Source of the DNA: a virus | Taxonomy: Duplodnaviria; Caudoviricetes | Length of the DNA stretch: 64,000 nt | IMG/VR virus record: IMGVR_UViG_3300022923_000005 | Span: 1-64,000 of that record | Direction: 5' to 3' (one strand) | Shown here: positions 27,445-42,302 of the stretch, piece after piece | Numbering within the stretch: the first letter of the stretch is position 1 | Layout: each line of letters begins with the position of its first letter | The notes under the pieces: model-generated | Told to the model about the DNA's origin: nothing | Seen by the model: the letters and a program-made list of their open reading frames with translations, nothing else | Database searches by the model: none | Position numbers and translations under genes: made by a program

Positions 27445-28220
27445 CTATATTTCTCAGTAAGTTTATATGCAACACCACTTAGTATTTCATCAATAGTAAA
27501 TTGTGTGTATGCAAGATTCCTACAATGCCTTTCTATTAATTTAGTTTTAGGTTTAAAAGGATTTGCTAGTTGTGATAAGTCAGTTGATGCCAAAGGACTA
27601 GCAGCACAAGGCACACTTACAAAAGCAGGTATACCATAAAGTACTGATTCGAGTGCAGCCATACTATTCATTGCAACAGTTGCATATACGCCACTATCAA
27701 ATGCATCATATATTGTATACCCTTTATTACGTTCACTACGCGAACCTTTTATACGTACTTCTACTGGCAAATCGCTGTATTTTGCAATTTGTTCTTTCGT
27801 ATCTTTAACCCACTTGTCATAATCAATGTTATACCACTTACAGGCTTTTGGATTTGGCATTACTAACAATATTTTTTTGTTATAATTTTTCCAACCTTTC
27901 CAAACTAACCTTGGGTCATCTGTTAACAATCTTTCCCAACGATCACCTGGAACATCTACAATGTCAACTTGTTGATTTTCGTTTTTAACAATACGATGCC
28001 ACTTCTTTTGTCCTTTTTTATTACCTGGACTTGGAAAGTTACCAAAGTATCCTGTATCTATGTACCAAAAATCTCTTCCAATTGCTTGTGCGTTGTCACG
28101 ATGGCCGTTTTTTATGACACCACGGATTACGTGTGGCTTGGTGATATCTTTAGAATCTAGTGTAAGGCGGTTTTCACTTCCTCTTACTAATGCTTCTTCA
28201 AGACCTATTGTATCATCCAT
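27441..28220 (-). CDS. KpsS/KpsC-like GT-B protein
   Basis: IDTGYFGN, WHRIVKN, MNSMAALESVLYGIP and LAYTQFT motifs. Confidence 0.65.
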   Translation of the reverse strand: MDDTIGLEEALVRGSENRLTLDSKDITKPHVIRGVIKNGHRDNAQAIGRDFWYIDTGYFGNFPSPGNKKGQKKWHRIVKNENQQVDIVDVPGDRWERLLTDDPRLVWKGWKNYNKKILLVMPNPKACKWYNIDYDKWVKDTKEQIAKYSDLPVEVRIKGSRSERNKGYTIYDAFDSGVYATVAMNSMAALESVLYGIPAFVSVPCAASPLASTDLSQLANPFKPKTKLIERHCRNLAYTQFTIDEILSGVAYKLTEKYR

Positions 28221-28902
28221 TCATCATCTCTTGTAATTCTTGTTTCCATTCGCTGTGGTATTCACAGTAACGATAATTTTCAAACCACGGACCACCTTCT
28301 GTATAGTGTATAAGTTTAGGCTTACCATCATCTGGTTCTTTATACCAACCTGCTAACCAATTCCATTCTGGGCTTAGTTCTCCAATTTCGTCATCTTTCA
28401 ACCAACTAAATCTGTGTAAATATTTTCCTGTAATTTTAGGATCGTTAACAAGTTCTACATTTATTTCTTGATTACTCGGATGTGAACAATTAAAAAGCAT
28501 TACACTTGACCAATTTTTACGTGGATAAACTGTTTGTGCCTGTCCGTCCATTTTGATTCCTTCTTTAGGAGTGTAGTCGTGTTTAACACACATCAATGCA
28601 TACTTGTTATCTGCTTGTGCAAATAATTCATTGATATCTGTTTGTAAAATCATATCACAATCCATAAACATAGCCCAACCATTAAAGTTGCTTAGTTCAG
28701 GTACTAAGAATCTTGTAAATGTAAATTCTGTACTTGCTAATTTATCAATTGGTCTGTCATAATACCCTTGTTCTCTTAATTCTTTTTGTATTAAAGGTTT
28801 TACTACAGCATTAGGACTTCTTTTTTCAATACTGTGTTTGCACACTTGGTATGCAATATCTTCTCTAGGATCATATCCTACAAATACTTTTAGTTCTTCC
28901 AT
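28213..28902 (-). CDS. GT8-like glycosyltransferase
   Basis: VFVGYDPRE, STEFTFTRF, FMDCDM, YPRKNWSS and HYTEGGPWF motifs. Confidence 0.88.
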   Translation of the reverse strand: MEELKVFVGYDPREDIAYQVCKHSIEKRSPNAVVKPLIQKELREQGYYDRPIDKLASTEFTFTRFLVPELSNFNGWAMFMDCDMILQTDINELFAQADNKYALMCVKHDYTPKEGIKMDGQAQTVYPRKNWSSVMLFNCSHPSNQEINVELVNDPKITGKYLHRFSWLKDDEIGELSPEWNWLAGWYKEPDDGKPKLIHYTEGGPWFENYRYCEYHSEWKQELQEMMNG

Positions 28903-29702
28903 TGTTCCTCCAATAGCTCTTTTGCCTTACCTGTTCTTAATTCACTAACGTGATATTGACCATATGCTAAATGACAACCCCAAGCATATCTTTTATCTTC
29001 TGATGGATAGTAAGGTGTTTCTATTAGACTTAAATCAGTACATCCAACTGGTCTTGCAGAGTTTGCAGGTGCTAACGGAAAAACAGGTATACCGTGAAAT
29101 ACTGCTTCTGTTGCTGCATTGCTATTGTATGTAACTAGTGCAAATACATCTTTGTTTAATGCTTGTTCTAATGTATCTGTCAAACGTGTAATTCTTTGTT
29201 TATCTCTTTGTCTTACTTCTATAGGACGATCTGTGAATTTTTTAATTTTAGTAATAGTAGAATGTATCCATTCATCTAAATTAATACCATAAAACTTACA
29301 AGGTTTTTCATCCGGTGCTGCTATAAGAATTTTTCTGCCATTCTTTTTCCAAGGCATAAATTTTTTATTAAATCTTTTAAATCTGTCGTCGGAGCGTTCA
29401 ATAATATCGCCGTGTTGTAAATTATTTTTAACAATTCTGTGCCAATACTTCCAACCATTAGGATTGCTTTTTGTAACTTCGTTACCAAAATATCCTGTGT
29501 CCATATAATAGAAGTCTCTATTATCTTCAAAACATTTATGTATAATTTTCTTTTTTAGAATACCTCTAAGCACAATAGGACGTTCATCTAAACTATCGTA
29601 TTCAAATGTTTTCGGATCAGTTGTAGTTGCTTTACAACCTGATGCAAATTCATTTATATATGGATCTTTGTGATCCTTGCTTAAAAATATCCAATCATTC
29701 AT
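28890..29702 (-). CDS. KpsS/KpsC-like GT-B protein
   Basis: MDTGYFGN, WHRIVKN, YNSNAATEAVFHGIP and LAYGQY motifs. Confidence 0.65.
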   Translation of the reverse strand: MNDWIFLSKDHKDPYINEFASGCKATTTDPKTFEYDSLDERPIVLRGILKKKIIHKCFEDNRDFYYMDTGYFGNEVTKSNPNGWKYWHRIVKNNLQHGDIIERSDDRFKRFNKKFMPWKKNGRKILIAAPDEKPCKFYGINLDEWIHSTITKIKKFTDRPIEVRQRDKQRITRLTDTLEQALNKDVFALVTYNSNAATEAVFHGIPVFPLAPANSARPVGCTDLSLIETPYYPSEDKRYAWGCHLAYGQYHVSELRTGKAKELLEEQWKN

Positions 29703-30466
29703 AAACGTTCGATGTCCTCTTCGACACAGTTTGTACCGTATTGGATTTCTACAACTTGTAAAGGTTCATCAGTTTCATTTGCTAACATATGCCATTCCAT
29801 ATTATCAATGTGTAATGACTGATGTTTTTCATATGTACCTCTAAGTTCATAATCTGTTGAGTTGTTAATAGTGTAAACGTTTGCTGTGCCTTTGGCAACA
29901 AACCAATGTTCTGCTCTATCCTTGTGTCGTTGCATACTTAGCATCTTACCTGGATCAACAGTAAGTTCTTTTACTTTAACGTTATTACCATATTCGTGAA
30001 TTACTCTGTAGTAACCCCACTTACGAATTGTTTTAGGATGTTTCCATTCTTCAAGTATCCAACTACTACTATTCTTTTTTGTATCGCCACCAACGCCATA
30101 TGCAAATGTTAGTTCGCCTGTGTCGTCATCGAATAATTCTGGAATGTTGTCTGGAGTTCTGTCGCCGCCATTAGCAAAAACTATTTCTGTAGCAGGAAAT
30201 TTTTTCCTTACTTTGCGTATTGCATCTGTAGCACTTCCATCGCTGTCATCAAATGTAATGACTTCATCAACAACTTCTAGTTCTTGGATAATTGCAATAC
30301 GTTCTTCTCCAGGCATAAATGGTCTGCCTTTTTTACGTACTAACCAATCATCACTGTTAACACCAACAATTAGTTTGGAGCCAAGTTTTTTTGCTTCTTT
30401 AAAATAGGCAATATGTCCACTGTGTAAAGGGTCAAATCCGCCTGTTACTAGTACAATTGTTTTCAT
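29699..30466 (-). CDS. cytidylyltransferase fused to mannose-6-phosphate-isomerase-type cupin
   Basis: GGFDPLHSGH (HIGH) and ANGGDR, followed by WGYY...LSMQRH..RAEHW...VEIQYG...EEDIER. Confidence 0.88.
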   Translation of the reverse strand: MKTIVLVTGGFDPLHSGHIAYFKEAKKLGSKLIVGVNSDDWLVRKKGRPFMPGEERIAIIQELEVVDEVITFDDSDGSATDAIRKVRKKFPATEIVFANGGDRTPDNIPELFDDDTGELTFAYGVGGDTKKNSSSWILEEWKHPKTIRKWGYYRVIHEYGNNVKVKELTVDPGKMLSMQRHKDRAEHWFVAKGTANVYTINNSTDYELRGTYEKHQSLHIDNMEWHMLANETDEPLQVVEIQYGTNCVEEDIERL

Positions 30467-30524
30467 ACTTTTATTTATATGCTCAGTTTATGTGTAAATA
30501 TAGAAGTGAAAGAGGAGCAAATTA

Positions 30525-30899
30525 TTGAAAATACTTATATGTGGACCAGAAGGGTCAGGAAAAACAACACTAGCAAAACCTTTTGCAGAATTAGTGGGCG
30601 GTGTATATGTGACTGGTGATACATACCAAAATGAACTACGTGGTTACGTAGATGGTATTGTTGCAGCAGGAAAAATTGCAATAATAGATAAACGCTGTAA
30701 TTCAAATAGTGCAAAAGAATATTTAGATCCAGATTATCTAGTTTGGATGGACACAATTAAAGAAACTACAGAATTTCAAAAACCTAAAAAATTTAATTAT
30801 CACGTTGCAACGTGGTTTCAGGATACACACGCACAACTTGCGGATGTTGTAAAAAGTTATCTTGAGAAAAAAGAAAAAGCGTTAGAAACTACAAAGTAG
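30525..30899 (+). CDS. P-loop kinase-like protein (short; adenylylsulfate/nucleotide kinase-like)
   Basis: ILICGPEGSGKTTLA and VWMDT motifs. TTG start after GAGGAG. Confidence 0.65.
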   Translation: MKILICGPEGSGKTTLAKPFAELVGGVYVTGDTYQNELRGYVDGIVAAGKIAIIDKRCNSNSAKEYLDPDYLVWMDTIKETTEFQKPKKFNYHVATWFQDTHAQLADVVKSYLEKKEKALETTK

Positions 30900-31347
30900 C
30901 ATCATCAAGTCCAGCAGTTCTTAACTTTACAATGTTAGTTAATTGCCACTGTTTCTGATCAAGTCCTTTAATAATTCCTAACCACTTATTTCGTATAAGA
31001 GCGAATTCGTTAATAATTTTTTCAAAGTCAACTACATCTGCTTCACCGTCAACAAACTTCTCTGCATCACGTGAACTTAATTGTCTTTGATAGTTTTCAA
31101 CATATCTTCTAAAATGCGAAGAACGTAATCTTCGGAGTTCAATGTTAAGATATTCTAGTATTGCTTCAATTTCTTGAAGTTGGCTAAATCTAGTCTCTAC
31201 GGATGCCGGCAAATGTGCTGAGGCTTTTTCAATCCTACCACTAATTTTAATTTCTGCTTTTGCAGCAATTAGTTCCGTATTGAAATACTCAACAGCATCA
31301 GGTATCTTGCTGATATCTTTCGAAACTAGATCATACCAATTTGTCAT
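30889..31347 (-). CDS. uvsY: recombination mediator UvsY
   Basis: Helical ~150-aa protein ending KQWQLTNIVKLRTAG, close to uvsX. Confidence 0.75.
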   Translation of the reverse strand: MTNWYDLVSKDISKIPDAVEYFNTELIAAKAEIKISGRIEKASAHLPASVETRFSQLQEIEAILEYLNIELRRLRSSHFRRYVENYQRQLSSRDAEKFVDGEADVVDFEKIINEFALIRNKWLGIIKGLDQKQWQLTNIVKLRTAGLDDATL

Positions 31348-31350
31348 ACT

Positions 31351-31587
31351 TTAATCCCAACGATCATCTTCATCTTCATCATAGTCTTCGACTTCATCGT
31401 CATCCAAGACATACTCGACTGCTTCATCTAGATAAGTGTCTATGCCAAACAGTCCTTGAATAACTGATTCGCTCACACCATAATCTAGTAGCGTATTAAT
31501 GTAACTTGCTGCCACATCTTTCTTTTTCTTTTCTTCAATGTGTTCAACCATTATAGTCCAAATATCTGCTATTAGATCACTATTCAT
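31351..31587 (-). CDS. acidic hypothetical protein
   Basis: 78-aa ORF between uvsX and uvsY. Confidence 0.75.
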   Translation of the reverse strand: MNSDLIADIWTIMVEHIEEKKKKDVAASYINTLLDYGVSESVIQGLFGIDTYLDEAVEYVLDDDEVEDYDEDEDDRWD

Positions 31588-31592
31588 ATGTT

Positions 31593-32669
31593 TTATACTC
31601 CGTTGCTTGTTACTGGTTCCTCTTCAACCTCGACTGGTTCTTCGACTTCTTCCAGTTCAGGCTTTGATTTAAGATCATTCATTATCATATTTAATTTATC
31701 GCCTGTCCAGTTCTTTCTATACTCTAAATGAACTTCTCCATTTAAGTCTGTATATTTAAGTCTATTACCGTCTTTTTTAAGCAATCCTTTTGCTTCAAAC
31801 AAGTCAACGCAGCCACTATAAGGATCCATACCTGTTTCATATGGAATCTTTACTTGCACTGCTTCAAATGGTTTTGCATAACGTGTTTTCATTACTTTAC
31901 ACGCAGCTCTAATACCATTTACTGTAGTAGTTTTATTACCATCTAAATCTTCTTTAAGTTTTAGTTTACGCATAGCAACAACAATACTACTTGCATAGAT
32001 AAAGCCTTGTCCACCACTAATCTTATCATCTGGATCAAACATATCCTGTGATGCATAAGTGTGGTTAGTACATACCATACCTACATTGTAACTACCAAAC
32101 ATATTAACACAGTTACGTACAAGTGCTGTTAGTGCTTTAGGCTTTCTACCCATATCACCTTTTAAATCACCTTTACCAAACTGATCAACATCTGTTGGAG
32201 TTAGTAGCATACCAAGTGAGTCAATTACAAATAATACTTTAGGACGTTCTTCGCCTGCCATATCTCTGTATTCTTTCATAAACTCTGATACTGTTTTAGC
32301 AACATCATCAATCATTGACATATTAAGTTTAAGAAGTTTTTCTTCACTTGTGTCAACATCTAATGCGTGTAGCCATTTCTCATCAAGTGCATTCTCTGAG
32401 TCAATTAGTACTACAAAGATACCTTGTTCTTGTGCTGATTTTACAATATTGCCGGCTGCAATATAAGATTTACCTGCACCGGATTCACCTGCTAGTACAG
32501 TAACTTTACCAAGAGGTACACCTCTATTAAAGTCACCACTAATAAGATAGTTTAGTGCATAGTTGCCTGTGCTGATCCAATCAGTAGGATCATTAAAGCC
32601 AATACCTAATCCGTCAATGGACTTTGTAAGGCTCTTTCTAAATTTAGTTACGTCAAACGCTTTTGCCAT
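31593..32669 (-). CDS. uvsX: RecA-like recombinase UvsX
   Basis: ISTG, AGESGAGKS, DSENA, IDSLG, NHTY and SGG motifs. Confidence 0.95.
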   Translation of the reverse strand: MAKAFDVTKFRKSLTKSIDGLGIGFNDPTDWISTGNYALNYLISGDFNRGVPLGKVTVLAGESGAGKSYIAAGNIVKSAQEQGIFVVLIDSENALDEKWLHALDVDTSEEKLLKLNMSMIDDVAKTVSEFMKEYRDMAGEERPKVLFVIDSLGMLLTPTDVDQFGKGDLKGDMGRKPKALTALVRNCVNMFGSYNVGMVCTNHTYASQDMFDPDDKISGGQGFIYASSIVVAMRKLKLKEDLDGNKTTTVNGIRAACKVMKTRYAKPFEAVQVKIPYETGMDPYSGCVDLFEAKGLLKKDGNRLKYTDLNGEVHLEYRKNWTGDKLNMIMNDLKSKPELEEVEEPVEVEEEPVTSNGV

Positions 32670-32691
32670 AATTACCTTTCCTTTGTTAAAG

Positions 32692-32743
32692 TATGAGAGA
32701 CCTCGCTGGTTACCGTACGGAGGTTTTTGCCGGAACTCTCATA
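32692..32743 (-). other. structured element in the gp32-uvsX intergenic region
   Basis: TATGAGAG (32692-32699) / CTCTCATA (32736-32743) encloses ACCTC (32700-32704) / GAGGT (32720-32724). Confidence 0.45.
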
Positions 32744-32751
32744 AACTCTTT

Positions 32752-33759
32752 TTATTGCTGACGGTTGCGAATCATTGCAAGAATGTCTTGCGCACGACCC
32801 GATCCATTGTCCTCAGTAGTTGCAGTTTCTGCCGCTGGTGCTGCTGCTGGTGCTTCAGTTACAGGCGCTGCTGCTGGAGCAGGTTCTGCCGCTGGAGCAG
32901 GTGCAGGAGTTACCGGAGCACTTGCTGCTGGTGCTGCTGCCTTATTAGGATCGCCAGTTGCCTGACTCATTCCCGCTGGACGGAAATATTGACCCCAACG
33001 TTCCGGATCATATGCTTCACCATCAACTGATGCTTCAAACATTTCCTTCATTACTTGAAGCTCAACTTCACCTGGCTTCTTAGGAAGGAAATCATTTAAG
33101 TTAAACAACCCGTGTTGTTCAACTGCTGCATTCTCTGTATCATTTAATGCACGTTCTTTACGTGACCATTGTGATGTAGAGTAGTCAGCATAACCACCTT
33201 TTGATGTTTTCTTAATACGGAAGTCAACACCACGAAGATAATCTGTTGGCAATTCTTCCAACTCTGGATCCATCAAAGCACCTTTAATGATTTGATAAAT
33301 CTGTGGACCAATAATAAACCTACGGATAGGATTCTCAGGTGTTCTCTCTTCGTTAAGAGGATCGTCTGTTACAAACCCTTGGAAAATGTACGAACGCTTT
33401 TTCCAATATTTACGTCCCATATCTTCTAGTGATTTGTCTTTAAACCAACCACGTACCTCAGAAAGAATTGGACAAGTAGTACCATCGTTGTACATTTCCA
33501 CACACGGAACTTGCACAATAGTATTACGACTGTCTGTTTCTCCTTTGATACCTGCGAATGGTAATTTAATCATCGCACGTTCTACCCAAAAGAATGTGTT
33601 GTCAGCGTTGCCGTCTGGTAAGAATCTTACCACGGCTTCTCTGCCTTCTTGCATATTCCAATGTGGGTAAATTGCGTTGTCACCGCCTCCAGTAGAATTA
33701 CCAGATGAGCGATTGTTTGCTTCTTGCAGTTTTGCACGAATTTCTGCTAATGATGCCAT
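32752..33759 (-). CDS. gp32: single-stranded DNA-binding protein (T4 gp32-like)
   Basis: VRFLPD, CPI, YWKKRSY, DF.IKKT.KGGYADYSTS motifs and an Ala/Pro-rich tail. AGGAGG ribosome-binding site. Confidence 0.92.
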   Translation of the reverse strand: MASLAEIRAKLQEANNRSSGNSTGGGDNAIYPHWNMQEGREAVVRFLPDGNADNTFFWVERAMIKLPFAGIKGETDSRNTIVQVPCVEMYNDGTTCPILSEVRGWFKDKSLEDMGRKYWKKRSYIFQGFVTDDPLNEERTPENPIRRFIIGPQIYQIIKGALMDPELEELPTDYLRGVDFRIKKTSKGGYADYSTSQWSRKERALNDTENAAVEQHGLFNLNDFLPKKPGEVELQVMKEMFEASVDGEAYDPERWGQYFRPAGMSQATGDPNKAAAPAASAPVTPAPAPAAEPAPAAAPVTEAPAAAPAAETATTEDNGSGRAQDILAMIRNRQQ

Positions 33760-33808
33760 TTGTTAGCCTCCTTTGTTTGCCTAATAAAAAATGTCATTTT
33801 ATGCCTAA

Positions 33809-33848
33809 TGCATATATGTATTATATGCAACTTTATTTATCTTGTCAA
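33809..33848 (-). promoter_or_regulatory. composite sigma70 plus late promoter for the gp32-uvsX-uvsY operon
   Basis: Perfect TTGACA (33843-33848), 17-nt spacer, TATAAT (33820-33825). TAAATA (33834-33839) in the spacer. 8-bp inverted repeat at 33809-33829. Confidence 0.85.
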
Positions 33849-33882
33849 GTGTATTTTTAACTAAATGTGATTTTGTTTAGCC

Positions 33883-33912
33883 AAAAGAAAAGGATCCTAA
33901 GATCCTTTCTTT
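33883..33912 (-). terminator. intrinsic terminator downstream of pqqA
   Basis: Minus strand AAAGGATC-TTAG-GATCCTTT followed by TCTTTT. Confidence 0.7.
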
Positions 33913-33966
33913 ATTCACAGTCCAATGTTTCTAACAATCTGTGTATATCTACTTCTACTTCTTTAT

Positions 33967-34038
33967 CTATCGGTTGGCTACATACATCGTTACTTCGAAG
34001 CCAAATCTCATCTCTGTTGCTATTGGTTTTGTCCACAT
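33967..34038 (-). CDS. pqqA: pyrroloquinoline quinone precursor peptide PqqA (23 aa, [23 protein letters not shown])
   Basis: Manual translation matches the PqqA family pattern (W..P.....R.GFEVTMY), including the E-x3-Y pair cross-linked into PQQ. AAGGA ribosome-binding site upstream; own promoter and terminator. Confidence 0.93.
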
Positions 34039-34059
34039 AATGTTTTCCTTTATAAAGTG

Positions 34060-34100
34060 AAAAAAAATAGTGTAGCAGTTTCCTACTACACTATTATTTA
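34060..34100 (-). promoter_or_regulatory. late promoter overlapping a GAAA-tetraloop terminator-like hairpin upstream of pqqA
   Basis: TAAATA at 34095-34100. RNA hairpin AAUAGUGUAGUAG-GAAA-CUGCUACACUAUU (34066-34095) followed by a U-tract. Confidence 0.65.
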
Positions 34101-34135
34101 AACATCTTTACGTAAAAAATCAATACGTAAAATCA

Positions 34136-36337
34136 TTAAAACATACTAAGTTGTTTAATTCTTTCAAGTTCTTCTAAGTCTTCTGCGCCTTGTTCTTGTG
34201 CAGGAGCCATTCTTTCTACCATCTTACGTGCAACTTGCTCAGCCTGTTCACCAAACTTTTTGCCTACCATAGTAGCAACACCTTCTGGTCCTTTTGGAAA
34301 AGTGCCTGTATTTTTATCATAAAAAGATTTAATAAATTCTGCTAAACCTTCTAGTGTATGTTCTTCACCATCTGAAGTTTTAAACTTAGTGCCTTTCTTA
34401 GCACCTGCTGCTTTCATTTGTCTTACTTTTTGTGAAAACTCATTGCCTTCAGTTTCTTGGCTTTCCATATCCATAATATCGCCTGCGATATCACCGTGAA
34501 ACTCTTGTCTATCAATTTCGTGTCTCACTTTATCAAAGCCATCTGTTTTAATTTTTTCAATGTAGTCTTGATAAATTTTGTCTGCATAGGATTCGTCTGG
34601 CTCGTTGCTACCTGTGATTTCATCTTCAAGTCTTTTAATACATTCTTCTGCATCATCACAATCTTGAATAATTTCCATTCCTGTAGTAACTGCTAAATCC
34701 CAAGCATTGCCGCCTTCTGCAACTTCAACTGATTCTTCTTTGTTAAGTAATTCTTCTTGATGTTTTTTAAGTTCTTCAATGCTATCAAACTCGCCTGTAA
34801 TCTCATTGTCTTTAATGCTATAGAATTTGCCACCTTTATTAATAGCAGCAAGTCCATACTTGTTAAAACCTTTTGACATATCTTCTTGTTGTGGTTCAAC
34901 TTCGTCTGCTCCTACAGCAGGTTCGTCTGCCATATCACCGAAATCTAATTCACCTAGTACGTCTGGCGCATTTTCTTCGATCCACGCTTTAAGCAAAGGT
35001 CTTACATCAGCGTTAGCATCTTCAGTTGCTTTTGCTTTAATATCTTGCTCTAGTTTTGGATCATCGATAATGCCTTCTAAACTTGTAATTGCGTTTGTGC
35101 CATCAACGCCTGCTGCAAACTCTTGGCTTGTAAGTTCATTTAAACTTTTTACCATATCTGCTTTTTCTTCATCATCTGCAATTTGGATTGGACTTTCTTC
35201 GCCTAATGCGTCTACCCAACTTTCAAATTTTTCAAAGCCCGGTAGTGTATCGATTGTGTCTTCGTGTTCTTCAGCAAGTTTTGGTTCAGCCTCTGCCGTC
35301 ATACCGACTATGTCGTCATAGCCTACTGTTTCTTCTTCTTTCATTAATCTATGAATTACTGGGAATACATCAGTTAAGTCCTCTTTAAAGTTCTTAACAG
35401 TAAACATATCTTTGTACTGCTCCATCACATCATCGTCTACTTCTACGTCTGCTGTTGCCTCAAATGATTCTTTAAAAGCCTCATAGTATGACTGTTTAGA
35501 TAATTTTCCAATTCTTTCTCTGAGAGTGTCAAGTTGTACTTTACTGCGTTCAACAATTCGATTAGTGTCGGAGTTCATCAAATCGTTGCGTACAACATAG
35601 CCTGTAAATGTTTTAAGTTGAGCAATTTCTTCACTCATCTTAACAATGCTTTCACCAATTTCATCGTATGGTGCGCCACCGTTCGCTACGTGACGTTGCA
35701 TTGCTCTTGCACCTGCTAAGTGAACGAAAGGATATTTAAATCTTTCTCCTGATTCGTTCTGTACAAATAGTGCAGAAATATTTCTTGATCTTGCACCTGG
35801 TTTTAATTCCATATCATCAGCAAGTTTTTTGCTGTGCTTGATAATAAGTTTCGTATCTTCTAGTTTCTGGAAACTTTGTGTTTTAGTTCCATATAAATTA
35901 CTCTCATTCATTACATTCTCTCCGACAGGTTTTGTAATTGTATCATTGTCTGACGCTGGGTTTGCATATTGACTAAGGAAAGCATAATCTCTTTTATCTA
36001 AATTATCCTTTGCAATATCTCTTGTGTCAAATGCTAGTAGTCTACGTTTTGCGAACTTTCTTAATTCTCTCAAAAACCCATACCAACCATCTTTTTGGTC
36101 TCTGTCCATACCCTCAGTAATACCATTGGAAAAGTATACTTTCATTGAGTTTGGCTCTGCAAGACTAATACTTACGTGTCCAATTTTCTTATCTTCTTCC
36201 ATATAGTCGAAGTCAAAGAAACGTGCATCTTCAGGGTTAATAGTAATTTGTCCTGAATCATCACCAAGTTTTAGATTAGAAAATCTACTTCTAACCTTAA
36301 AAAATAAGTCTGTTGCTATATTATTAGTTGCGTCCAT
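34136..36337 (-). CDS. large acidic hypothetical protein (likely virion or head-associated)
   Basis: 733 aa downstream of the terminase; TAAATA-N5-ATG start at 36337. Confidence 0.8.
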   Translation of the reverse strand: MDATNNIATDLFFKVRSRFSNLKLGDDSGQITINPEDARFFDFDYMEEDKKIGHVSISLAEPNSMKVYFSNGITEGMDRDQKDGWYGFLRELRKFAKRRLLAFDTRDIAKDNLDKRDYAFLSQYANPASDNDTITKPVGENVMNESNLYGTKTQSFQKLEDTKLIIKHSKKLADDMELKPGARSRNISALFVQNESGERFKYPFVHLAGARAMQRHVANGGAPYDEIGESIVKMSEEIAQLKTFTGYVVRNDLMNSDTNRIVERSKVQLDTLRERIGKLSKQSYYEAFKESFEATADVEVDDDVMEQYKDMFTVKNFKEDLTDVFPVIHRLMKEEETVGYDDIVGMTAEAEPKLAEEHEDTIDTLPGFEKFESWVDALGEESPIQIADDEEKADMVKSLNELTSQEFAAGVDGTNAITSLEGIIDDPKLEQDIKAKATEDANADVRPLLKAWIEENAPDVLGELDFGDMADEPAVGADEVEPQQEDMSKGFNKYGLAAINKGGKFYSIKDNEITGEFDSIEELKKHQEELLNKEESVEVAEGGNAWDLAVTTGMEIIQDCDDAEECIKRLEDEITGSNEPDESYADKIYQDYIEKIKTDGFDKVRHEIDRQEFHGDIAGDIMDMESQETEGNEFSQKVRQMKAAGAKKGTKFKTSDGEEHTLEGLAEFIKSFYDKNTGTFPKGPEGVATMVGKKFGEQAEQVARKMVERMAPAQEQGAEDLEELERIKQLSMF

Positions 36338-36348
36338 ATAAGTATTTA

Positions 36349-37938
36349 TCAAAAACCGCCAGATACGAATATCGGCAATGGATACTCGTCGTCAGTCATT
36401 CTCTCCGTCATTTTTTCATATATTTTTGGATCCCAGTTTGCTAATTGATCTGCCATACGCATAATTAGCAATACTGCTGATACTAGATCGTCGTGTTCGC
36501 CTGTTTTTGCATTGTAACTGACACCTGTTGCTACAAATGTCTTAAGTTCAGATATCAAAGGTTTACTAGATATTGACATTTTGTCTCTTTCCAATGCATT
36601 TTTAAATAAACTACACGCTGTAATTTTAGTCTTGTGTGTAGTATTAAATCCTTTTCTATAACGCCTTACGTGTCCTTTTCTAATAGGTTCACTTAAAAAT
36701 AATCCATTAAAGTTTTCTTCGCCAATGTCAGTAATAACAACAAGTGCTGCTTCACCTATTGTGTTATTTTCTACACTATAGTAAACAGTAGGATTAGGAT
36801 TGCCGCCTGCAATTTGTTCGTTAGTAATATATTTTAAAATATCTTGAAGCACTCTAATCTGTTGTTGTACAGGAGTCAAATTATGTCGCCATTCGCCAAC
36901 TTGTTTCATTGCTGGCATTTCAAATATTTGTATTGCAGCGTAGTCACCGCCTGTACCTAAACTAGGATCAAGTGCAATTAAGTGTGTTGCTTTAGGATTA
37001 ATTTTACTATACCAACGTGTTTGTCCTGTATTAGCAATAGGCTCTTTGCCTTCAAGTGTTGCTAGTTTAACACTGTTAATTAATGTTTCATCAAATATTA
37101 AGAACTCACAATCAAACTCACGACGAAATCTTTCTTCGCCAATCTTTGCACGTTCTTCGTTTGCCCAATCATCATCTCTATCAGGATGTTCTGTCCACGG
37201 AGCAAAGTAAGGATAGAAACCGTTCGTACCTACTTTCTGATCATTGCCGTGTTCGTCAAACTTTTTATTTGCTTCTGCCCAAATCATAGCAAACTGATCT
37301 TCATCTGAGTTTGGTGTGCTTGTAACGATTGCTTTACCACCTGTTGACAGTGTAGGAGAAAGTGCAGTCCAAAACTCTTTGGCTTTCTCTGGCGGTTGCA
37401 CAAATGCAAACTCATCACAATATATTAATGAAAGTGATTTACCACGTCCAGTATCTTCTGTTGTAGTAGTTGCTTGTATTCTACTACCATTATCAAATTC
37501 AATTGTGTTTCTGTTATATGTATAGATACCTGCACGTATAAAGTCTGGTAAAGTTTCGTAACCGAATCTATATCTATTCATAATATCCTGCGCACCTGTA
37601 TATTTGTGTGCAGCAATTAAAACTTGTGATTCAGGTGTAAACATAGTGTACCATAGTAGGTAACCAGCAGCACAAGTTGTTTTACCCATCTGTCTTGGTA
37701 ACATAGCAACACAATATCTATTTTCTGCGTATGCTTGTATTAGTTCTCTTTGAAATCCGTATGGTACAAACTTCATTGATCCTTTTGTAGGGTGTTGAAT
37801 AGTTAAAAAGTTTTCACAGAAATATAATGGTCCTGTAATAGGATCCATACAAGCCTCTAAGTGCTTAACTTCTTCAAGTGTATATTTTTGTTTTTTATGG
37901 GCCTTCTTAATTTGAACGCCATCTAAACTCTTTGCCAT
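36349..37938 (-). CDS. gp17: terminase large subunit
   Basis: PRQMGKT, GRGKS, YCDEFAF, TSTPN, FRREFDCEF, ALDPSLGTGGDY and HDDLV motifs. Confidence 0.97.
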   Translation of the reverse strand: MAKSLDGVQIKKAHKKQKYTLEEVKHLEACMDPITGPLYFCENFLTIQHPTKGSMKFVPYGFQRELIQAYAENRYCVAMLPRQMGKTTCAAGYLLWYTMFTPESQVLIAAHKYTGAQDIMNRYRFGYETLPDFIRAGIYTYNRNTIEFDNGSRIQATTTTEDTGRGKSLSLIYCDEFAFVQPPEKAKEFWTALSPTLSTGGKAIVTSTPNSDEDQFAMIWAEANKKFDEHGNDQKVGTNGFYPYFAPWTEHPDRDDDWANEERAKIGEERFRREFDCEFLIFDETLINSVKLATLEGKEPIANTGQTRWYSKINPKATHLIALDPSLGTGGDYAAIQIFEMPAMKQVGEWRHNLTPVQQQIRVLQDILKYITNEQIAGGNPNPTVYYSVENNTIGEAALVVITDIGEENFNGLFLSEPIRKGHVRRYRKGFNTTHKTKITACSLFKNALERDKMSISSKPLISELKTFVATGVSYNAKTGEHDDLVSAVLLIMRMADQLANWDPKIYEKMTERMTDDEYPLPIFVSGGF

Positions 37939-37956
37939 ACAAGTATTTATAGAAGA

Positions 37957-37980
37957 AAATAGGCTCCGAAGAGCCTATTT
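37957..37980 (-). terminator. intrinsic terminator with C(UUCG)G loop
   Basis: Minus strand AAATAGGCTC-TTCG-GAGCCTATTTT, immediately before the terminase late promoter. Confidence 0.85.
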
Positions 37981-38001
37981 GGATAATATGAAACTTATGA
38001 T

Positions 38002-38430
38002 TTATGCGAAATCAAATGATGTTTTAACTGTTGCAGTTACAGCAGTCATATCGAAGTTGTTGTTTCCGTATGTAGCACCTAGTGCAATACATTCATCTTC
38101 AATTTGTTCTACTAGTGTTTCTGCTCCAGCACCATCATAATCTAATGATGCATTTGATTGTTCAACTGCAAAACACATCTTTTGGTTAGTTGCGTGTAGG
38201 TCGCCTCTGATAACAATTGTACAATACTTACCGATAATTTCGATAAGTGCTTGGATTGCTTCATTAGCACCTGTTTCAGCATTTGCTGCTGCTCCAAAAT
38301 CAACTTCAAAAAATGTTAAATTTTTTCCACCTGGGAAGTCAATAGCAGTAACATCTGCTGCAGGTTTTCTATTTGCTGCAACTAATACTGAGCTACCACC
38401 GCCAATCGTTGATGTTAATAAGTCTGCCAT
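38002..38430 (-). CDS. putative virion structural protein
   Basis: 142-aa Ala/Gly/Thr-rich protein ending a late operon; AAGGAG ribosome-binding site and strong terminator. Confidence 0.6.
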   Translation of the reverse strand: MADLLTSTIGGGSSVLVAANRKPAADVTAIDFPGGKNLTFFEVDFGAAANAETGANEAIQALIEIIGKYCTIVIRGDLHATNQKMCFAVEQSNASLDYDGAGAETLVEQIEDECIALGATYGNNNFDMTAVTATVKTSFDFA

Positions 38431-39173
38431 TATTTTGCTCCTTTAGTTTCTGCTAACGCTTTTTGTAATTCTGCTTTAATAGAAGCACGTAAGTCGTCGC
38501 CTTCTTTTACTTTTTGCATAGGATTGTCTGCACCAGCAACTTTAGGATGTGTTCCTTTTCTGCGGTTCATTCCACCTTGTAATTTTGTCATTTGATAATT
38601 AACGGATCTTTCATCTTCGTCAGGCTCGTTTGCCCACGCTTCTTCTTTATCCTTTTTATCATCATCTTTGTCGTCTTTTTCCATATCGTGATCATCCATA
38701 TCGTGATCGTCATCACCGTCTTTATCTAGTGACTTAATCATTACGTGATCTTTATCGTGGTCTTTAGGAAGATCTTTTTCTCCGCCTGGCATATCATCAT
38801 TGTCGCCGTCGAAGTCTGGAATTAATTTGTTAATTGGTTTAGGCATTGGCCCTTCTGGTTCATCCATCGGTCCGTCCATACCTGGTGCCATAATTGATAA
38901 AGTAGGCATCTCTGGTTTTTCAGGCTGGTTAATCATATCTGGATTAACTTTCGTCATTAACTTTAGCACGTCGTCAATTGCATCGCCTTTAGCAGTAATG
39001 TTTATATTCATTGTTGCTTCTTCTTTTTCTTTTGGCTGCATCATATCTGGTGCGTTCGGTGCCATCATAGGTGGCATCTCGTTCATACCACACTCATCTG
39101 TCTTTGTTTCTACAGGTGTGTTTTGCGCGGTATCAATAGCAGTCATCTTACGTACTAGTTCTTGAAAATCCAT
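38430..39173 (-). CDS. low-complexity acidic protein (possible head/scaffold-associated)
   Basis: Met/Pro/Asp/His-rich with DxDGD motifs. Confidence 0.7.
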   Translation of the reverse strand: MDFQELVRKMTAIDTAQNTPVETKTDECGMNEMPPMMAPNAPDMMQPKEKEEATMNINITAKGDAIDDVLKLMTKVNPDMINQPEKPEMPTLSIMAPGMDGPMDEPEGPMPKPINKLIPDFDGDNDDMPGGEKDLPKDHDKDHVMIKSLDKDGDDDHDMDDHDMEKDDKDDDKKDKEEAWANEPDEDERSVNYQMTKLQGGMNRRKGTHPKVAGADNPMQKVKEGDDLRASIKAELQKALAETKGAK

Positions 39174-39174
39174 A

Positions 39175-39756
39175 TTAGTTACTCCCTACAGGACTTTTTA
39201 CACCTGCGTCATCTTGTTTTAATTTTGGTACGTCTTGGTAAACGTCCGCTTTTAATTTATCGTGCCCCAATTCTTTTGCACGTTCGGCTGCTGTTTTGGA
39301 TAAGTCTTGTAAAAATGACTTATTAAACTCATCACCGAAATAATCTTTGTGTGCTACAGCAATACCTTCTTTGTATTCGTTATCGTGTAACAATGCACCT
39401 TCACGCTTACCGTCAGTTGCTTGATACTCTTCTGATGGACTTAATGCATTACGTGCTACATACATTCCTTCTTTACAACAACCCATTTCAAAAATTTCTT
39501 TTTCAACATCAGTTGGTGTGCAAGGATATTCTGTAACCAATGAAAACGTATGTACTTCACAGTTTGCTAACTGTGGAAAGTCTAGCGGTGTTTCAGTAAC
39601 TGGTGTAGTTTTCAATTGTTCAAATTCAACAATGCCTCTGTTGTCTAGTCTTGACTTCAAATCATCACCAAAGCCTTCAGGAAGCTCTCCAGCAACCTTT
39701 ACTTTGATACTGTATACTTTTTTGCTCTCTGCGAGATATTCTTTAAACGTCTTCAT
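39175..39756 (-). CDS. hypothetical protein with T4 capsid-targeting-like N-terminus
   Basis: Begins MKTFKEYLAE; TAAATA-N5-ATG. Confidence 0.75.
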   Translation of the reverse strand: MKTFKEYLAESKKVYSIKVKVAGELPEGFGDDLKSRLDNRGIVEFEQLKTTPVTETPLDFPQLANCEVHTFSLVTEYPCTPTDVEKEIFEMGCCKEGMYVARNALSPSEEYQATDGKREGALLHDNEYKEGIAVAHKDYFGDEFNKSFLQDLSKTAAERAKELGHDKLKADVYQDVPKLKQDDAGVKSPVGSN

Positions 39757-39764
39757 ATTACTAT

Positions 39765-40277
39765 TTATTCCTTTCCGCCTAATTTCTTAATTAATTCATT
39801 GCGATCTAGCATTACATAGCCAGTTCCATCCACTAATTCATTGGGATCTTCTGGAGAATCGCGGTCAATTTTAAGTTTTTTCAGTTGTAGATCAACTGCT
39901 TTAAGTTTTTTATCAACTTTAGCGGTTTTTGCATCAATAGCATTCTTTAACATACTACCTGCTACTTCAAATATACGTCCGCTATAACGTACTTCTACAT
40001 TCATACCCAAATCCATAAGATCGTCATATGCTTGTTCTGCTTTACTTGCAAGATGATCCAATTCACCTTCGCCCATTGCGTCTAGTTCACGCATTTGTGG
40101 CAAGTCCTTAGTAACTTGTGCAATTGCTTTGTAAGAAGCATCTACACTTTTGATTTCTTCTTGTGCTACTTCAGGATCAATTGCTTTAGTTTCTACAGGT
40201 GCTTCTTCAGTTGCAATTTGTTCTTCTGCAACTTTTTGATCTTCCATATTAAATAATTCTTCTAACTTTTTGGTCAT
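39765..40277 (-). CDS. putative terminase small subunit (gp16-like)
   Basis: RIFEVAGSMLK...KK...DLQLKK helical motif, size and proximity to gp17. Confidence 0.5.
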   Translation of the reverse strand: MTKKLEELFNMEDQKVAEEQIATEEAPVETKAIDPEVAQEEIKSVDASYKAIAQVTKDLPQMRELDAMGEGELDHLASKAEQAYDDLMDLGMNVEVRYSGRIFEVAGSMLKNAIDAKTAKVDKKLKAVDLQLKKLKIDRDSPEDPNELVDGTGYVMLDRNELIKKLGGKE

Positions 40278-40303
40278 ATTGTTTTACCATATTATAATAG
40301 TAT

Positions 40304-40744
40304 TTATTTGCGCTTGGCACCTTGATGAAATATTTCTTCTTCACTAACTATGCGGAATCTAACACGCTTTTGCTTACACCAAGCAGCAGCAGCCTCCCAT
40401 TTGGCCATATTTTTTATATATTGTTCTTGGTTAAATCTGCTTTTACCTACTTTTTCACGCAACGTTTGATTCTTAGGTTTTACTTCAATTACTTCTGCGT
40501 GTTGCTTACCATTCTTATCATTATAAACAATAAAGAAGTCCGGGACATAAATTGAATACTTTCCTGTCAACGGATCTTTGTATGGTATCTTAATACTTTC
40601 ACTTGCCCACTGTGCTACACTTGGATGTTCGTCTAACATACGCATAAAAACAGTTTCCCAACTGCTTCTTGCAAGTGGACTTTTTGTACCTACATACTTT
40701 GCAGGATTTTTAACTACGTAGCGACCCTGTGCAAACTTTGCCAT
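40304..40744 (-). CDS. gp4: head completion nuclease (T4 gp4, TnsA-like)
   Basis: NPAKYVG, RSSWE, WASE, YVPDF, EVKP and KWEAA motifs. Confidence 0.9.
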   Translation of the reverse strand: MAKFAQGRYVVKNPAKYVGTKSPLARSSWETVFMRMLDEHPSVAQWASESIKIPYKDPLTGKYSIYVPDFFIVYNDKNGKQHAEVIEVKPKNQTLREKVGKSRFNQEQYIKNMAKWEAAAAWCKQKRVRFRIVSEEEIFHQGAKRK

Positions 40745-41122
40745 TTACACAACCACATTACGTTCTTTACTTACATCTGGTGTAGTTTGTCTATAACCAA
40801 GTGTTGAAGTTGACGGTCTATGATTATTCATAATCTCGCCTACTAATGCAGATACTTGTAGTTCTTGTAAACCAGATAATGTATCTAATAATTCATTAAT
40901 TGGAATGTTTTCTAGTTTTGCTTGTTTAAGTAAAACCGCTGCTGATAAATTTGCAGCAGGATCAGTAAATCCTTTTTTTCTAAAAAAGTTAATAGCAGCA
41001 TCAATGTCTGGAACTTTATAAGATAAAGGTTCTTTACCATATGTGTCAAAGAATAATTTAGTTCTTGCTCCACTATCTTGTACTATTTTTTGTGGTAAGT
41101 TAGTTTGTACTTCGCCTGCCAT
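40745..41122 (-). CDS. hypothetical protein
   Basis: 125-aa ORF in the tail/head operon. Confidence 0.75.
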   Translation of the reverse strand: MAGEVQTNLPQKIVQDSGARTKLFFDTYGKEPLSYKVPDIDAAINFFRKKGFTDPAANLSAAVLLKQAKLENIPINELLDTLSGLQELQVSALVGEIMNNHRPSTSTLGYRQTTPDVSKERNVVV

Positions 41123-41123
41123 A

Positions 41124-42233: not shown

Positions 42234-42250
42234 ACTATTATTTAGCCATA

Positions 42251-42280
42251 AAAAAAGCCCGGAAAAATATCCGGGCTTTT
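42251..42280 (-). terminator. intrinsic terminator after the tail tube gene
   Basis: AAAAGCCCGGA / TCCGGGCTTTT inverted repeat with a T-tract on the minus strand. Confidence 0.8.
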
Positions 42281-42302
42281 AGTGTTTTTAATAAAACTAG
42301 TA

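What the first reader, a model, noticed from the sequence alone, without database searches (positions are those of the whole stretch)
33883..34100. Phage-encoded PQQ precursor peptide (pqqA) as an autonomous transcription unit
Seen: in the apparently empty gap upstream of gp32, the minus strand 34038-33967 reads [23 protein letters not shown]-stop. It has an AAGGA SD, a TAAATA late promoter (34095-34100) and its own terminator (33883-33912). No pqqB-E genes are in this window. Known: PqqA is the ribosomal precursor whose Glu and Tyr (ExxxY) are cross-linked by PqqE/PqqD and matured by PqqB/C. One peptide is consumed per PQQ, the cofactor of methanol, alcohol and glucose dehydrogenases. Inference: the phage supplies the one stoichiometric part of a host RiPP pathway, sustaining PQQ-dependent respiration after host transcription shuts off while long-lived host enzymes persist. 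A 72-bp auxiliary gene like this is missed by normal gene callers. The [14 protein letters not shown] segment resembles Methylophilaceae PqqA as I recall it, suggesting a methylotroph host such as OM43; this host call is unverified, and I cannot confirm whether phage pqqA has been reported.
Basis: partly seen in the sequence, partly recalled or inferred. Interest (0 to 1): 0.92.

Follow-up and report, generated by a model that had tools for sequence, protein, structure and literature searches.

The report
Phage copy of PQQ precursor gene

Summary
The minus-strand ORF 34038-33967 matches the PqqA profiles at twice their curated cut-offs. It lies in a myovirus fragment (IMG/VR record of 132.6 kb, CheckV 38% complete) between a virion-protein gene and the gp32-like SSB gene. 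No pqqB-E, methanol dehydrogenase or radical-SAM gene was found anywhere in the record.

The gene is under purifying selection. It is the only stretch in 20 kb with DNA similarity to Methylophilaceae genomes, and those genomes carry pqqC and 3-7 dispersed pqqA copies.

The kind is not new. A viral PqqA was published in 2020 (Coutinho et al., PMC7678222), the same peptide is in cultured methylophages and in more than 120 IMG/VR contigs, and this scan has noted it 133 times on other DNA.

- The TAAATA sits 38 nt after a cassette motif (TAATGATT) shared with other viral and some host pqqA upstream regions.
- A 41-codon frame (34036-33911) overlaps pqqA and ends in a conserved tail. Codon usage keeps it open in all copies that carry the tail.

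Whether the gene is expressed, and whether it yields PQQ, remains untested.

The parts
34129..34138 (-). Left boundary motif of the pqqA cassette (TAATGATTTT). It starts 38 nt before TAAATA and overlaps the stop codon of the upstream 738-aa gene.
   Evidence: The motif TAATGA[AT]T[AT]T occurs in 33 of 115 viral pqqA upstream regions against 1.7% of control segments, and conservation begins exactly at the motif. It is also present upstream of pqqA in Melnitz, P19250A, MEP301 and MEP402. It is not a general motif of this phage: 14 copies against 15.9 expected, and this is the only intergenic one. In the host, 13 of 115 pqqA upstream regions carry a palindrome built on the same half-site.
34095..34100 (-). 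TAAATA, a candidate -10 or late-type promoter core for the pqqA transcript.
   Evidence: TAAATA followed by 3-6 nt (4-6 in the sites found, mostly 5) and ATG opens 16 ORFs of at least 50 aa in the record, against 0.5 in shuffles. The 11 bases from TAAATA onward are identical to those before the tail-tube gene start at 42233. In other cassettes the best -10-like hexamer peaks 36-38 nt after the boundary motif. TAAATA is conserved in L003, L039, L168, L185 and L208. There is no RNA evidence.
34060..34095 (-). 13-bp GAAA-loop hairpin followed by eight T. It would terminate transcripts from the upstream late genes. A transcript started about 6 nt after TAAATA would keep only a 7-bp stem at its 5' end.
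   Evidence: Found by the terminator scan. The full stem folds at -18.1 kcal/mol. RNA starting at 34089 folds a 7-bp stem that ends 4 nt before the U run. The identical hairpin is in L039 and L061. The two roles are inferred.
34046..34050 (-). Shine-Dalgarno AAGGA, 7 nt before the ATG and 9 nt before the overlapping GTG.
   Evidence: Read directly from the sequence. DNA similarity to host pqqA loci extends through this ribosome-binding region.
33967..34038 (-). pqqA: 23 codons plus stop, with Glu15 and Tyr19 as the E-x3-Y pair.
   Evidence: PF08042 scores 42.1 bits and TIGR02107 41.7 bits. Against L002 there are 9 synonymous and 2 non-synonymous differences, and pN/pS over all pairs of the 102 distinct 23-codon viral DNA sequences is 0.13. 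It is the only host-like DNA in window 24001-44000.
33911..34036 (-). Overlapping 41-codon frame. Its GTG start lies 2 nt after the pqqA ATG, it is in the +2 frame, and it ends in a conserved acidic tail (...LLETLDCE) with its stop just upstream of the terminator stem.
   Evidence: The tail follows pqqA in 24 IMG/VR contigs, and the frame is open across the whole of pqqA in all 24. Among 109 distinct viral copies only four have the frame open, three with a tail of this kind (L113, L168, L139) and one without (L197). T at the frame-closing third positions is 0/47 in tailed copies against 211/374 in tail-less ones. Arg and Leu codons switch synonymously at positions my search pattern did not fix. 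Gene callers predicted it in 8 protein clusters, and seven of the eight predicted proteins end in the conserved tail. Translation has not been shown.
33879..33909 (-). Terminator of the cassette: 9-bp stem, 4-nt loop and a T-rich tail.
   Evidence: Found by the terminator scan. It is conserved in L003 and L039, and the T-rich tail matches the single terminator found in relatives with an empty slot. Within 70 nt downstream of pqqA, 69% of viral and 91% of host copies fold with z below -2.
33820..33848 (-). Context only: the promoter of the gp32-like SSB gene, a perfect TTGACA-17-TATAAT with a TAAATA inside the spacer. It marks the right-hand end of the cassette slot.
   Evidence: 12 of 12 consensus matches. 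It is conserved in relatives whether or not they carry pqqA.

Best explanation
The locus is a host-derived auxiliary gene cassette in a lytic giant myovirus that most likely infects Methylophilaceae.

Shown:
- The cassette holds an intact pqqA with a host-like ribosome-binding site and its own terminator.
- It sits in a variable slot between a virion-protein gene and the SSB gene.
- The coding sequence is under purifying selection.
- No other pqq gene is in the 132-kb record.
- The presumed host family has pqqC, and it has pqqB-E beside some pqqA copies.

Inferred:
- The cassette is transcribed from the TAAATA at 34100-34095. That start lies inside the 5' arm of the upstream hairpin. Transcripts from the upstream late genes would therefore stop at the full hairpin, while the cassette's own RNA keeps only a short 5' stem and reads on.
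- The 23-residue peptide is bound by host PqqD, cross-linked at Glu15 and Tyr19 by host PqqE, and matured by host PqqB and PqqC (established PQQ pathway). This would raise or maintain the supply of the one component that is consumed per PQQ made.
- That in turn would keep PQQ-dependent methanol dehydrogenase loaded during infection.

A second product from the overlapping frame is possible, and its role is unknown.
For: - Profile matches are at twice the curated cut-offs.
- The Glu-x3-Tyr pair and the 11-residue core are invariant in five copies of this phage lineage. Those copies were found through gp32, not through the peptide, and they differ by many synonymous changes.
- Phage context: sheath, tube, TerL, UvsX, SSB and helicases. 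The SSB's relatives are in jumbo phages such as PA5oct and Atu_ph07.
- pqqB-E are not found in the record and are next to none of 120 viral pqqA loci. The same test finds them at 27 of 120 bacterial loci.
- Identical peptides occur in viral and bacterial sets.
- Hosts keep 3-7 dispersed copies, even in a 1.3-Mb genome, and 93 of 120 host loci are orphan copies. This suggests that the amount of precursor matters.
- pqqC is over its cut-off in 58 of 61 genomes of the family.
- Only pqqA in 20 kb resembles host DNA, at up to 86% identity.
- The peptide is in cultured phages of Methylophilales of three morphotypes.
- The slot varies from 124 to 1306 nt among relatives and carries other cargo in most of them.
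- Promoter and hairpin anatomy.
Against:
- PQQ is a prosthetic group and is not consumed in catalysis, so the need for new PQQ within one infection cycle is assumed, not shown.
- The record is a fragment (38% complete), so pqqB-E or a dehydrogenase could lie in the missing part.
- The hairpin with U8 between TAAATA and the gene could terminate the cassette's own transcript as well.
- The host is inferred only from the gene itself and from G+C content (36.9%).
- The overlapping frame shows that the cassette may do something besides, or other than, supplying PqqA.
Confidence: 0.68

Rival explanations
1. The peptide modulates or blocks host PQQ synthesis instead of feeding it. Over-produced phage PqqA, or a frameshifted or alternative product sharing its sequence, would titrate PqqD or PqqE or act as a signal. 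This would lower PQQ or redirect SAM use during infection.
For: Only the precursor is carried and never the enzymes. A conserved overlapping frame hints at a second activity of the cassette.
Against: Viral peptides are identical or nearly identical to host peptides, and both cross-link residues are kept. A dead-end inhibitor would be expected to lose or alter them. Hosts themselves multiply pqqA copies.
Confidence: 0.1
2. In this cassette type the selected payload is the overlapping 41-codon frame. Under this reading pqqA is kept mainly because the second frame was overprinted on it, and the small acidic protein has a phage function unrelated to PQQ.
For: The frame is open in 24 of 24 tailed copies, against only one tail-less copy (L197) among 109 distinct viral copies. 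No T occurs at the 47 frame-closing positions, against 56% elsewhere. The tail is conserved at protein level through synonymous Arg and Leu switches. The tailed cassette occurs in two genomic contexts: before the SSB gene here, and after the major head gene in L352.
Against: Most viral pqqA copies, including all cultured methylophages, lack the second frame yet keep pqqA intact. The PqqA core is as conserved in tailed copies as in the others. No start signal distinguishes the GTG, which every pqqA has by necessity (ATG followed by TGG). The tailed copies share ancestry, so the counts are not independent.
Confidence: 0.1
3. The gene is a passive passenger: a recently captured piece of host DNA, or a homology patch for recombination with the host's many pqqA copies, with no selected function in the phage.
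For: The gene sits in a hyper-variable slot that holds unrelated cargo in relatives. Only 4 of the 80 related loci fetched carry it.
Against: Divergence is strongly synonymous-biased within the phage lineage and across more than 100 viral copies. The gene occurs in roughly 10-17 flank-similarity groups of viral contigs and in phages of three morphotypes. DNA identity to any host sampled is at most 86% over about 70-90 nt, which is too short and too diverged for efficient homologous recombination. No integrase context was found in this lytic-type myovirus.
Confidence: 0.04

Closest known systems
Viral PqqA of Lake Baikal methylotroph phages (population VP_266; Coutinho et al. 2020, Microbiome 8:163, PMC7678222)
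   Same: A PqqA precursor peptide gene on an uncultured T4-like viral contig of about 35% G+C. The host was predicted to be Methylophilaceae, and the gene was interpreted as an auxiliary gene supporting methanol oxidation.
   Different: The Baikal contigs also encode a methanol dehydrogenase, and the partner population carries radical-SAM and SAM-cycle genes. None of these was found in this 132-kb record. That paper does not describe the cassette anatomy, the shared upstream motif or the overlapping frame. I could not compare the sequences directly.
Orphan (non-operon) pqqA copies of Methylophilaceae chromosomes
   Same: The peptide is the same, 20-22 of 23 residues identical and in some viral copies fully identical. 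The ribosome-binding region is the same. The layout is the same: a single gene followed by a hairpin terminator. A related upstream half-site motif is shared.
   Different: The window's copy lies in a phage, between phage genes, behind a phage-type TAAATA motif. The host palindrome lies about 113-135 nt from the ATG, whereas the viral motif lies closer and is mostly a single half-site. The host copies sampled lack the conserved tail frame.
pqqA in cultured methylophages (Melnitz, Venkman, P19250A, MEP301, MEP401/402)
   Same: A stand-alone 23-24-codon pqqA, 77-87% identical to the window's peptide. Four of these phages carry the TAATGATT motif upstream.
   Different: They are other phage lineages (siphoviruses, podoviruses and a 141-kb Kyanoviridae myovirus). 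The gene is unannotated, or the opposite strand is annotated, in GenBank. The Melnitz, MEP301 and MEP40x papers do not mention a phage pqq gene. Where I read the codons (Melnitz), the second frame is closed by a stop soon after its start. Other named methylophages (MEP431-434, HIM624-A and others) did not appear among the hits, and I did not establish whether they are in the collection.
Cyanophage psbA and similar auxiliary metabolic genes (from general knowledge, not tested here)
   Same: The logic is the same: the phage carries a copy of the host component that turns over fastest or is consumed, so that host energy metabolism lasts through infection.
   Different: Here the product is a 23-residue sacrificial precursor of a cofactor, not an enzyme or a reaction-centre protein. 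It depends entirely on four or five host enzymes.

Membership tests
PqqA (Pfam PF08042; NCBIfam TIGR02107) | Match to the curated family profile above its cut-off, over the whole model | tested here: met
   PF08042 scores 42.1 bits against a cut-off of 21.1, covering model positions 1-19 of 19. TIGR02107 scores 41.7 bits against 20, covering 1-21 of 21. The whole-record search finds this one copy only.
PqqA (Pfam PF08042; NCBIfam TIGR02107) | Conserved Glu and Tyr spaced E-x3-Y, the residues that become PQQ | tested here: met
   Glu15 and Tyr19 are read directly from the translation. They are invariant in the five copies of this lineage and in all viral and host copies collected, although the large sets were collected with a pattern that fixes this core.
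PqqA (Pfam PF08042; NCBIfam TIGR02107) | Gene placed in front of pqqBCDE | tested here: not met
   No pqqB, C, D or E was found in the 132.6-kb record. This feature is not strictly defining: 93 of 120 Methylophilaceae loci with the same peptide also lack neighbouring pqqB-E.
PqqA (Pfam PF08042; NCBIfam TIGR02107) | Peptide is bound by PqqD, cross-linked by PqqE and converted to PQQ | not testable with these tools
   The peptide is below the 30-residue minimum of the complex predictor, and no solved structure matches it by sequence. This needs biochemistry.
Phage auxiliary metabolic gene | Host-derived metabolic gene inside a genuine phage genome, flanked by phage genes | tested here: met
   The flanking genes are a virion protein, TerL, SSB and UvsX. 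pqqA is the only host-like DNA in 20 kb, with 86 of 101 family genomes matching it.
Phage auxiliary metabolic gene | Kept by selection in the phage | tested here: met
   Window against L002 gives pS 0.64 and pN 0.04. Over all pairs of the 102 distinct 23-codon viral DNA sequences, pN/pS is 0.13, and 0.25 outside the motif used for collection.
Phage auxiliary metabolic gene | Expressed during infection, with an effect on host metabolism | not testable with these tools
   TAAATA is strongly enriched just before start codons, including TerL, tube and virion-protein genes, and it lies 62 nt before pqqA. In other pqqA cassettes the same offset from the boundary motif holds sigma-70-like TATAAT or CATAAT. 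The hexamer may therefore be read by host sigma-70, by a late factor, or by both. The longer word GTTTAAATA is not enriched.

The most novel reading that the evidence does not exclude
The pqqA cassette of this phage and about 25 related contigs is a dual-coding unit. From one ribosome-binding site it would yield PqqA and, from the GTG two bases later or by a shift into the -1 frame, a 36-48-residue acidic protein with a conserved C-terminal tail. The cassette also keeps a promoter-proximal half-site of a host pqqA operator, so it would stay wired to the host's control of methylotrophy. It moves between different slots in giant phages as a promoter-hairpin-gene-terminator module.
Probability: 0.35. 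Interest if true: 0.6.

Novelty: new member of a known kind. Interest (0 to 1): 0.42.

Why it matters
PQQ is required by the methanol dehydrogenases that feed carbon and energy to Methylophilaceae, which are abundant in lakes and coastal seas. A phage that brings only the sacrificial precursor suggests that PqqA supply limits PQQ synthesis in these cells, and that phages exploit this.

The practical value is threefold:
- It is one more host marker. The gene ties an uncultured giant-phage lineage to Methylophilaceae.
- It shows that a 72-base gene is missed or mis-annotated in GenBank records of cultured methylophages.
- It gives a clean small system for testing a cofactor-precursor auxiliary gene in the phage-host pairs that are already cultured.

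The possible second reading frame and the shared upstream motif are the only parts that go beyond what has been published.

Tried and rejected
I used degenerate DNA patterns instead.
- Rfam: nothing significant around the gene or in the L003 leader. The best match, IMES-4, scored 25 bits against a gathering score of 48.
- PDB by sequence: no match.
- Other Baikal-type auxiliary genes were searched for in the record and none was found: PQQ-dependent alcohol dehydrogenase, PQQ_2, peptide deformylase, radical SAM and SAM synthetase.
- The 22-nt block upstream of the hairpin, and GTTTAAATA as a repeated promoter word, are not repeated or enriched in the window. I first took this as evidence against the promoter. 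I revised that after the shorter core proved enriched before start codons.
- Single-linkage tblastx clustering of flanks collapsed nearly everything into one cluster and was uninformative. Coverage thresholds of 15% and 30% gave 10 and 17 groups.
- The 'Acinetobacter phage MD-2021a' hits were rejected as phage evidence: the contig is bacterial, with pqqBCDE, ppk and a nucleotidase.
- The attP or integration-site reading was rejected for this lytic-type myovirus, because divergence from the host is protein-constrained.
- A canonical -1 slippery heptamer for the second frame was looked for by eye and not seen.
- The claim that every cultured methylophage has pqqA was not adopted, because several named phages were not among the hits and their presence in the collection is unknown.

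Full report
**Observation.** On the minus strand, 34038-33967 is a 23-codon ORF. It is preceded by AAGGA (34050-46). It is followed, after 55 nt, by a 9-bp hairpin with a T-rich tail (33909-33888). It scores 42.1 bits against Pfam PqqA (cut-off 21.1, E 7.8e-11) and 41.7 bits against TIGR02107 (cut-off 20), covering both models end to end. The Glu-x3-Tyr pair is Glu15 and Tyr19.

**The replicon.**
- The window is the first 64 kb of an IMG/VR record of 132,571 bases. The record is linear, and CheckV rates it 38% complete. G+C is 36.9%.
- PHROGs identify a 1119-aa tail sheath, tube, TerL, UvsX, a gp32-like SSB, DnaB-like and other helicases, and a virion structural protein for the 738-aa ORF just upstream of pqqA.
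- The closest cultured relatives of the SSB are in jumbo phages such as Phosso, PA5oct and Atu_ph07, at 54-57% identity.
- This is therefore a fragment of a giant myovirus.
- The record has one pqqA and no pqqB, C, D or E. It also has no PQQ-dependent dehydrogenase, radical-SAM, SAM synthetase or deformylase gene. Because the record is a fragment, this does not show that the phage lacks them.

**Is the gene real and selected?**
- Eighty IMG/VR loci were fetched through the SSB alone. Four of them carry pqqA upstream of the SSB gene: L002, L003, L039 and L061.
- These copies were not selected by their peptide, yet the 11-residue core is invariant while many synonymous sites differ. The window against L002 shows 9 synonymous and 2 non-synonymous differences (pS 0.64, pN 0.04).
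- Over all pairs of the 102 distinct 23-codon viral DNA sequences, pN/pS is 0.13. It is 0.25 outside the motif used to collect them.
- The slot between the 738-aa gene and the SSB gene varies from 124 to 1306 nt among relatives. In most of them it is empty or holds other small cargo.
- pqqA is therefore an accessory gene sitting at a hot spot.

**Host and origin.**
Almost all rows were Methylophilaceae: Methylotenera, Methylophilus, Methylovorus, Methylobacillus, Ca. Methylopumilus and others.
- Viral and bacterial peptide sets overlap and share identical sequences.
- pqqB-E lie beside 27 of 120 bacterial loci and beside none of 120 viral loci. The remaining bacterial loci are orphan copies.
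- Four named genomes have 3-7 pqqA copies each, including three in the 1.3-Mb Ca. Methylopumilus universalis genome.
- pqqC is over its cut-off in 58 of 61 genomes of the family.
- When 20 kb of the window was compared with 101 genomes of the family, 86 genomes matched. Apart from a few weak hits elsewhere, the matches covered only 33968-34060, which is pqqA plus its ribosome-binding region, at 74-86% identity.
- An alignment with four host loci shows shared ribosome-binding site and coding sequence but different terminators.
- The host is thus Methylophilaceae at family level. The genus is unresolved, and OM43 is not specifically supported.

**Is it new?** No.
- Coutinho et al. 2020 (PMC7678222) reported PqqA on a T4-like Lake Baikal viral contig assigned to Methylophilaceae and proposed the same role.
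- tblastn finds the peptide in Venkman, P19250A, MEP301, MEP401/402, four Melnitz isolates and one uncultured podovirus. In their GenBank records it is unannotated or covered by an opposite-strand 'hypothetical protein'.
- The Melnitz, MEP301 and MEP40x papers do not mention a phage pqq gene.
- More than 120 IMG/VR contigs carry the exact core. At coverage thresholds of 15% and 30% their flanks fall into 10 and 17 similarity groups.
- This scan's own notes list 133 findings of the same kind in at least 86 genomes.

**Transcription-unit anatomy.**
- TAAATA (34100-95) overlaps the 5' foot of a 13-bp GAAA-loop hairpin that is followed by eight T (34095-34060; -18.1 kcal/mol). Taken alone, this looks like the terminator of the upstream late gene, placed between 'promoter' and gene.
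- Two comparisons nevertheless support a promoter at this spot.
  - First, TAAATA is this phage's recurrent gene-proximal motif. TAAATA followed by 3-6 nt (4-6 in the sites found, mostly 5) and ATG opens 16 ORFs of at least 50 aa, against 0.5 in shuffles. These include TerL, the 738-aa gene and the tube gene, and the 11 bases from the motif onward before the tube gene are identical to those here.
  - Second, the hexamer starts exactly 38 nt after a motif, TAATGATTTT (34138-29), that marks the left edge of conservation in many viral pqqA cassettes. A variant of it occurs in 33 of 115 viral upstream regions against 1.7% of controls. In those cassettes the best -10-like hexamer (TATAAT, CATAAT or TAAATA) peaks 36-38 nt after the motif.
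- The motif is not a general element of this phage.
- It is also upstream of pqqA in Melnitz, P19250A, MEP301 and MEP402.
- In host genomes a palindrome built on the same half-site lies about 113-135 nt upstream of pqqA in 13 of 115 loci. This suggests an operator captured together with the gene.
- If transcription starts about 6 nt after TAAATA, as the leaderless genes imply, the RNA begins inside the hairpin's 5' arm. It then keeps only a 7-bp stem that ends 4 nt before the U run.
- My inference is that read-through from the late operon is stopped by the full hairpin. The cassette's own RNA escapes termination and carries a protective 5' stem.
- Stable structure upstream and downstream of pqqA is common in both viral and host copies: downstream z is below -2 in 69% and 91% of copies respectively.
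- In L002, L003 and L061 a different, lineage-specific leader of about 70 nt replaces or follows the hairpin. It contains a small helix with one compensatory change.
- None of this is backed by RNA data.

**A second frame.**
- The GTG formed by the last base of the ATG and the first two of the Trp codon opens a 41-codon frame (34036-33911). This frame spans pqqA and stops just upstream of the terminator stem.
- Its last nine residues recur after pqqA in L039 and L003. A pattern scan found them in 24 further IMG/VR contigs, and 4 other hits were chance.
- In all 24 the frame is open across the whole of pqqA. Among 109 distinct viral copies collected without regard to the tail, it is open in only four, and three of those carry a tail of this kind (L113, L168, L139).
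- The frame can be closed only by a T at the third position of five codons. Tailed copies have T there in 0 of 47 cases, against 33% at other codons. Tail-less copies have it in 211 of 374. For example, codon 14 is TTC in 12 of 12 tailed copies but TTT in 80 of 99 tail-less ones.
- In codons that my pattern did not fix, Arg alternates AGA and CGT, and Leu alternates CTT, CTG and TTG.
- Gene callers have predicted this frame in eight protein clusters. Seven of the eight predicted proteins end in the conserved tail, and their linkers vary.
- The tailed cassette occurs before the SSB gene in this lineage and directly after the major head gene in L352.
- The copies share ancestry, so the counts overstate independence. 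No translation evidence exists, and the function is unknown.
- Earlier notes of this scan reached the same suspicion on other genomes.

**Mechanism and verdict.**
The phage supplies the consumed precursor to the host's PqqD/E/B/C machinery so that PQQ-dependent methanol oxidation is sustained during infection.
- The gene, its selection, its host origin and the host's possession of the pathway are shown. Expression, timing, processing and benefit are inferred.
- The main conceptual weakness is that PQQ is not consumed in catalysis, so the demand for new PQQ within one infection is assumed.
- I rate the case as a new member of a known kind of phage auxiliary gene, of moderate interest. The overlapping frame and the shared upstream motif are the parts worth following up.

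Noticed in passing
window 277, 878, 3773, 6960(-), 16530, 23347(-), 30466(-), 36337(-), 37938(-), 39756(-), 42233(-), 46438, 48534(-), 58436; record 94427(-), 99342(-): Sixteen genes, including TerL, the tube gene and the 738-aa virion protein gene, have TAAATA ending 4-6 nt (mostly 5) before the ATG, usually as ...T-ATG. This leaves no room for a Shine-Dalgarno site (shuffles give 0.5). It implies leaderless or nearly leaderless late mRNAs. First readers of this genome noted the same layout.
   Followed up: partly
window 33820-33848 (-): The gp32-like SSB gene has a perfect TTGACA-17-TATAAT promoter with a TAAATA inside the spacer. The arrangement is conserved in relatives, so the gene may be read both early (host sigma-70) and late.
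   Followed up: no
loci L004-L081, between the 738-aa gene homologue and the SSB gene: The slot is a cargo hot spot of 124-1306 nt. Many relatives carry there a small secreted Ala/Lys/Pro-rich protein of 61-73 aa with a signal peptide. Others carry a 74-78-aa basic protein or longer ORFs. Only 4 of the 80 loci carry pqqA.
   Followed up: partly
L002:30-105, L003:750-885, L061:1960-2040: A lineage-specific leader of about 70 nt lies upstream of pqqA. It has a short helix showing one compensatory change (GTGGG/CCCAC against GCGGG/CCCGT). It was not found in 118 host or 114 other viral upstream regions, and it has no Rfam match.
   Followed up: partly
GenBank CAKLQF020000010.1 (L088) and CAKLQH020000055.1: Contigs labelled 'Acinetobacter phage MD-2021a' carry a bacterial pqqABCDE operon with ppk and a 5'-nucleotidase. 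They look like chromosomal contigs filed as phage.
   Followed up: partly
GenBank MT375522, KX815270, OP830906/7, MW452941, MZ577095-98, MW202481: pqqA is unannotated in Venkman, P19250A, MEP401/402 and MEP301. In Melnitz and MW202481 an opposite-strand 'hypothetical protein' is annotated over it.
   Followed up: yes
host loci such as L222, L235, L240, L250, L251, L326, about 113-135 nt upstream of pqqA: A 7+7 palindrome (CTAATGA, 4-nt spacer, TCATTAG), often followed by a further TTCATGA-like half-site, lies upstream of orphan pqqA genes of Methylophilaceae. It is a candidate operator of an unidentified regulator of pqqA.
   Followed up: partly
window 8672-10141 (-): A 489-aa Nol-like carbamoyltransferase (PHROG 1601, E 1e-99) sits beside the replicative helicase gene. 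It is another probable auxiliary gene.
   Followed up: no
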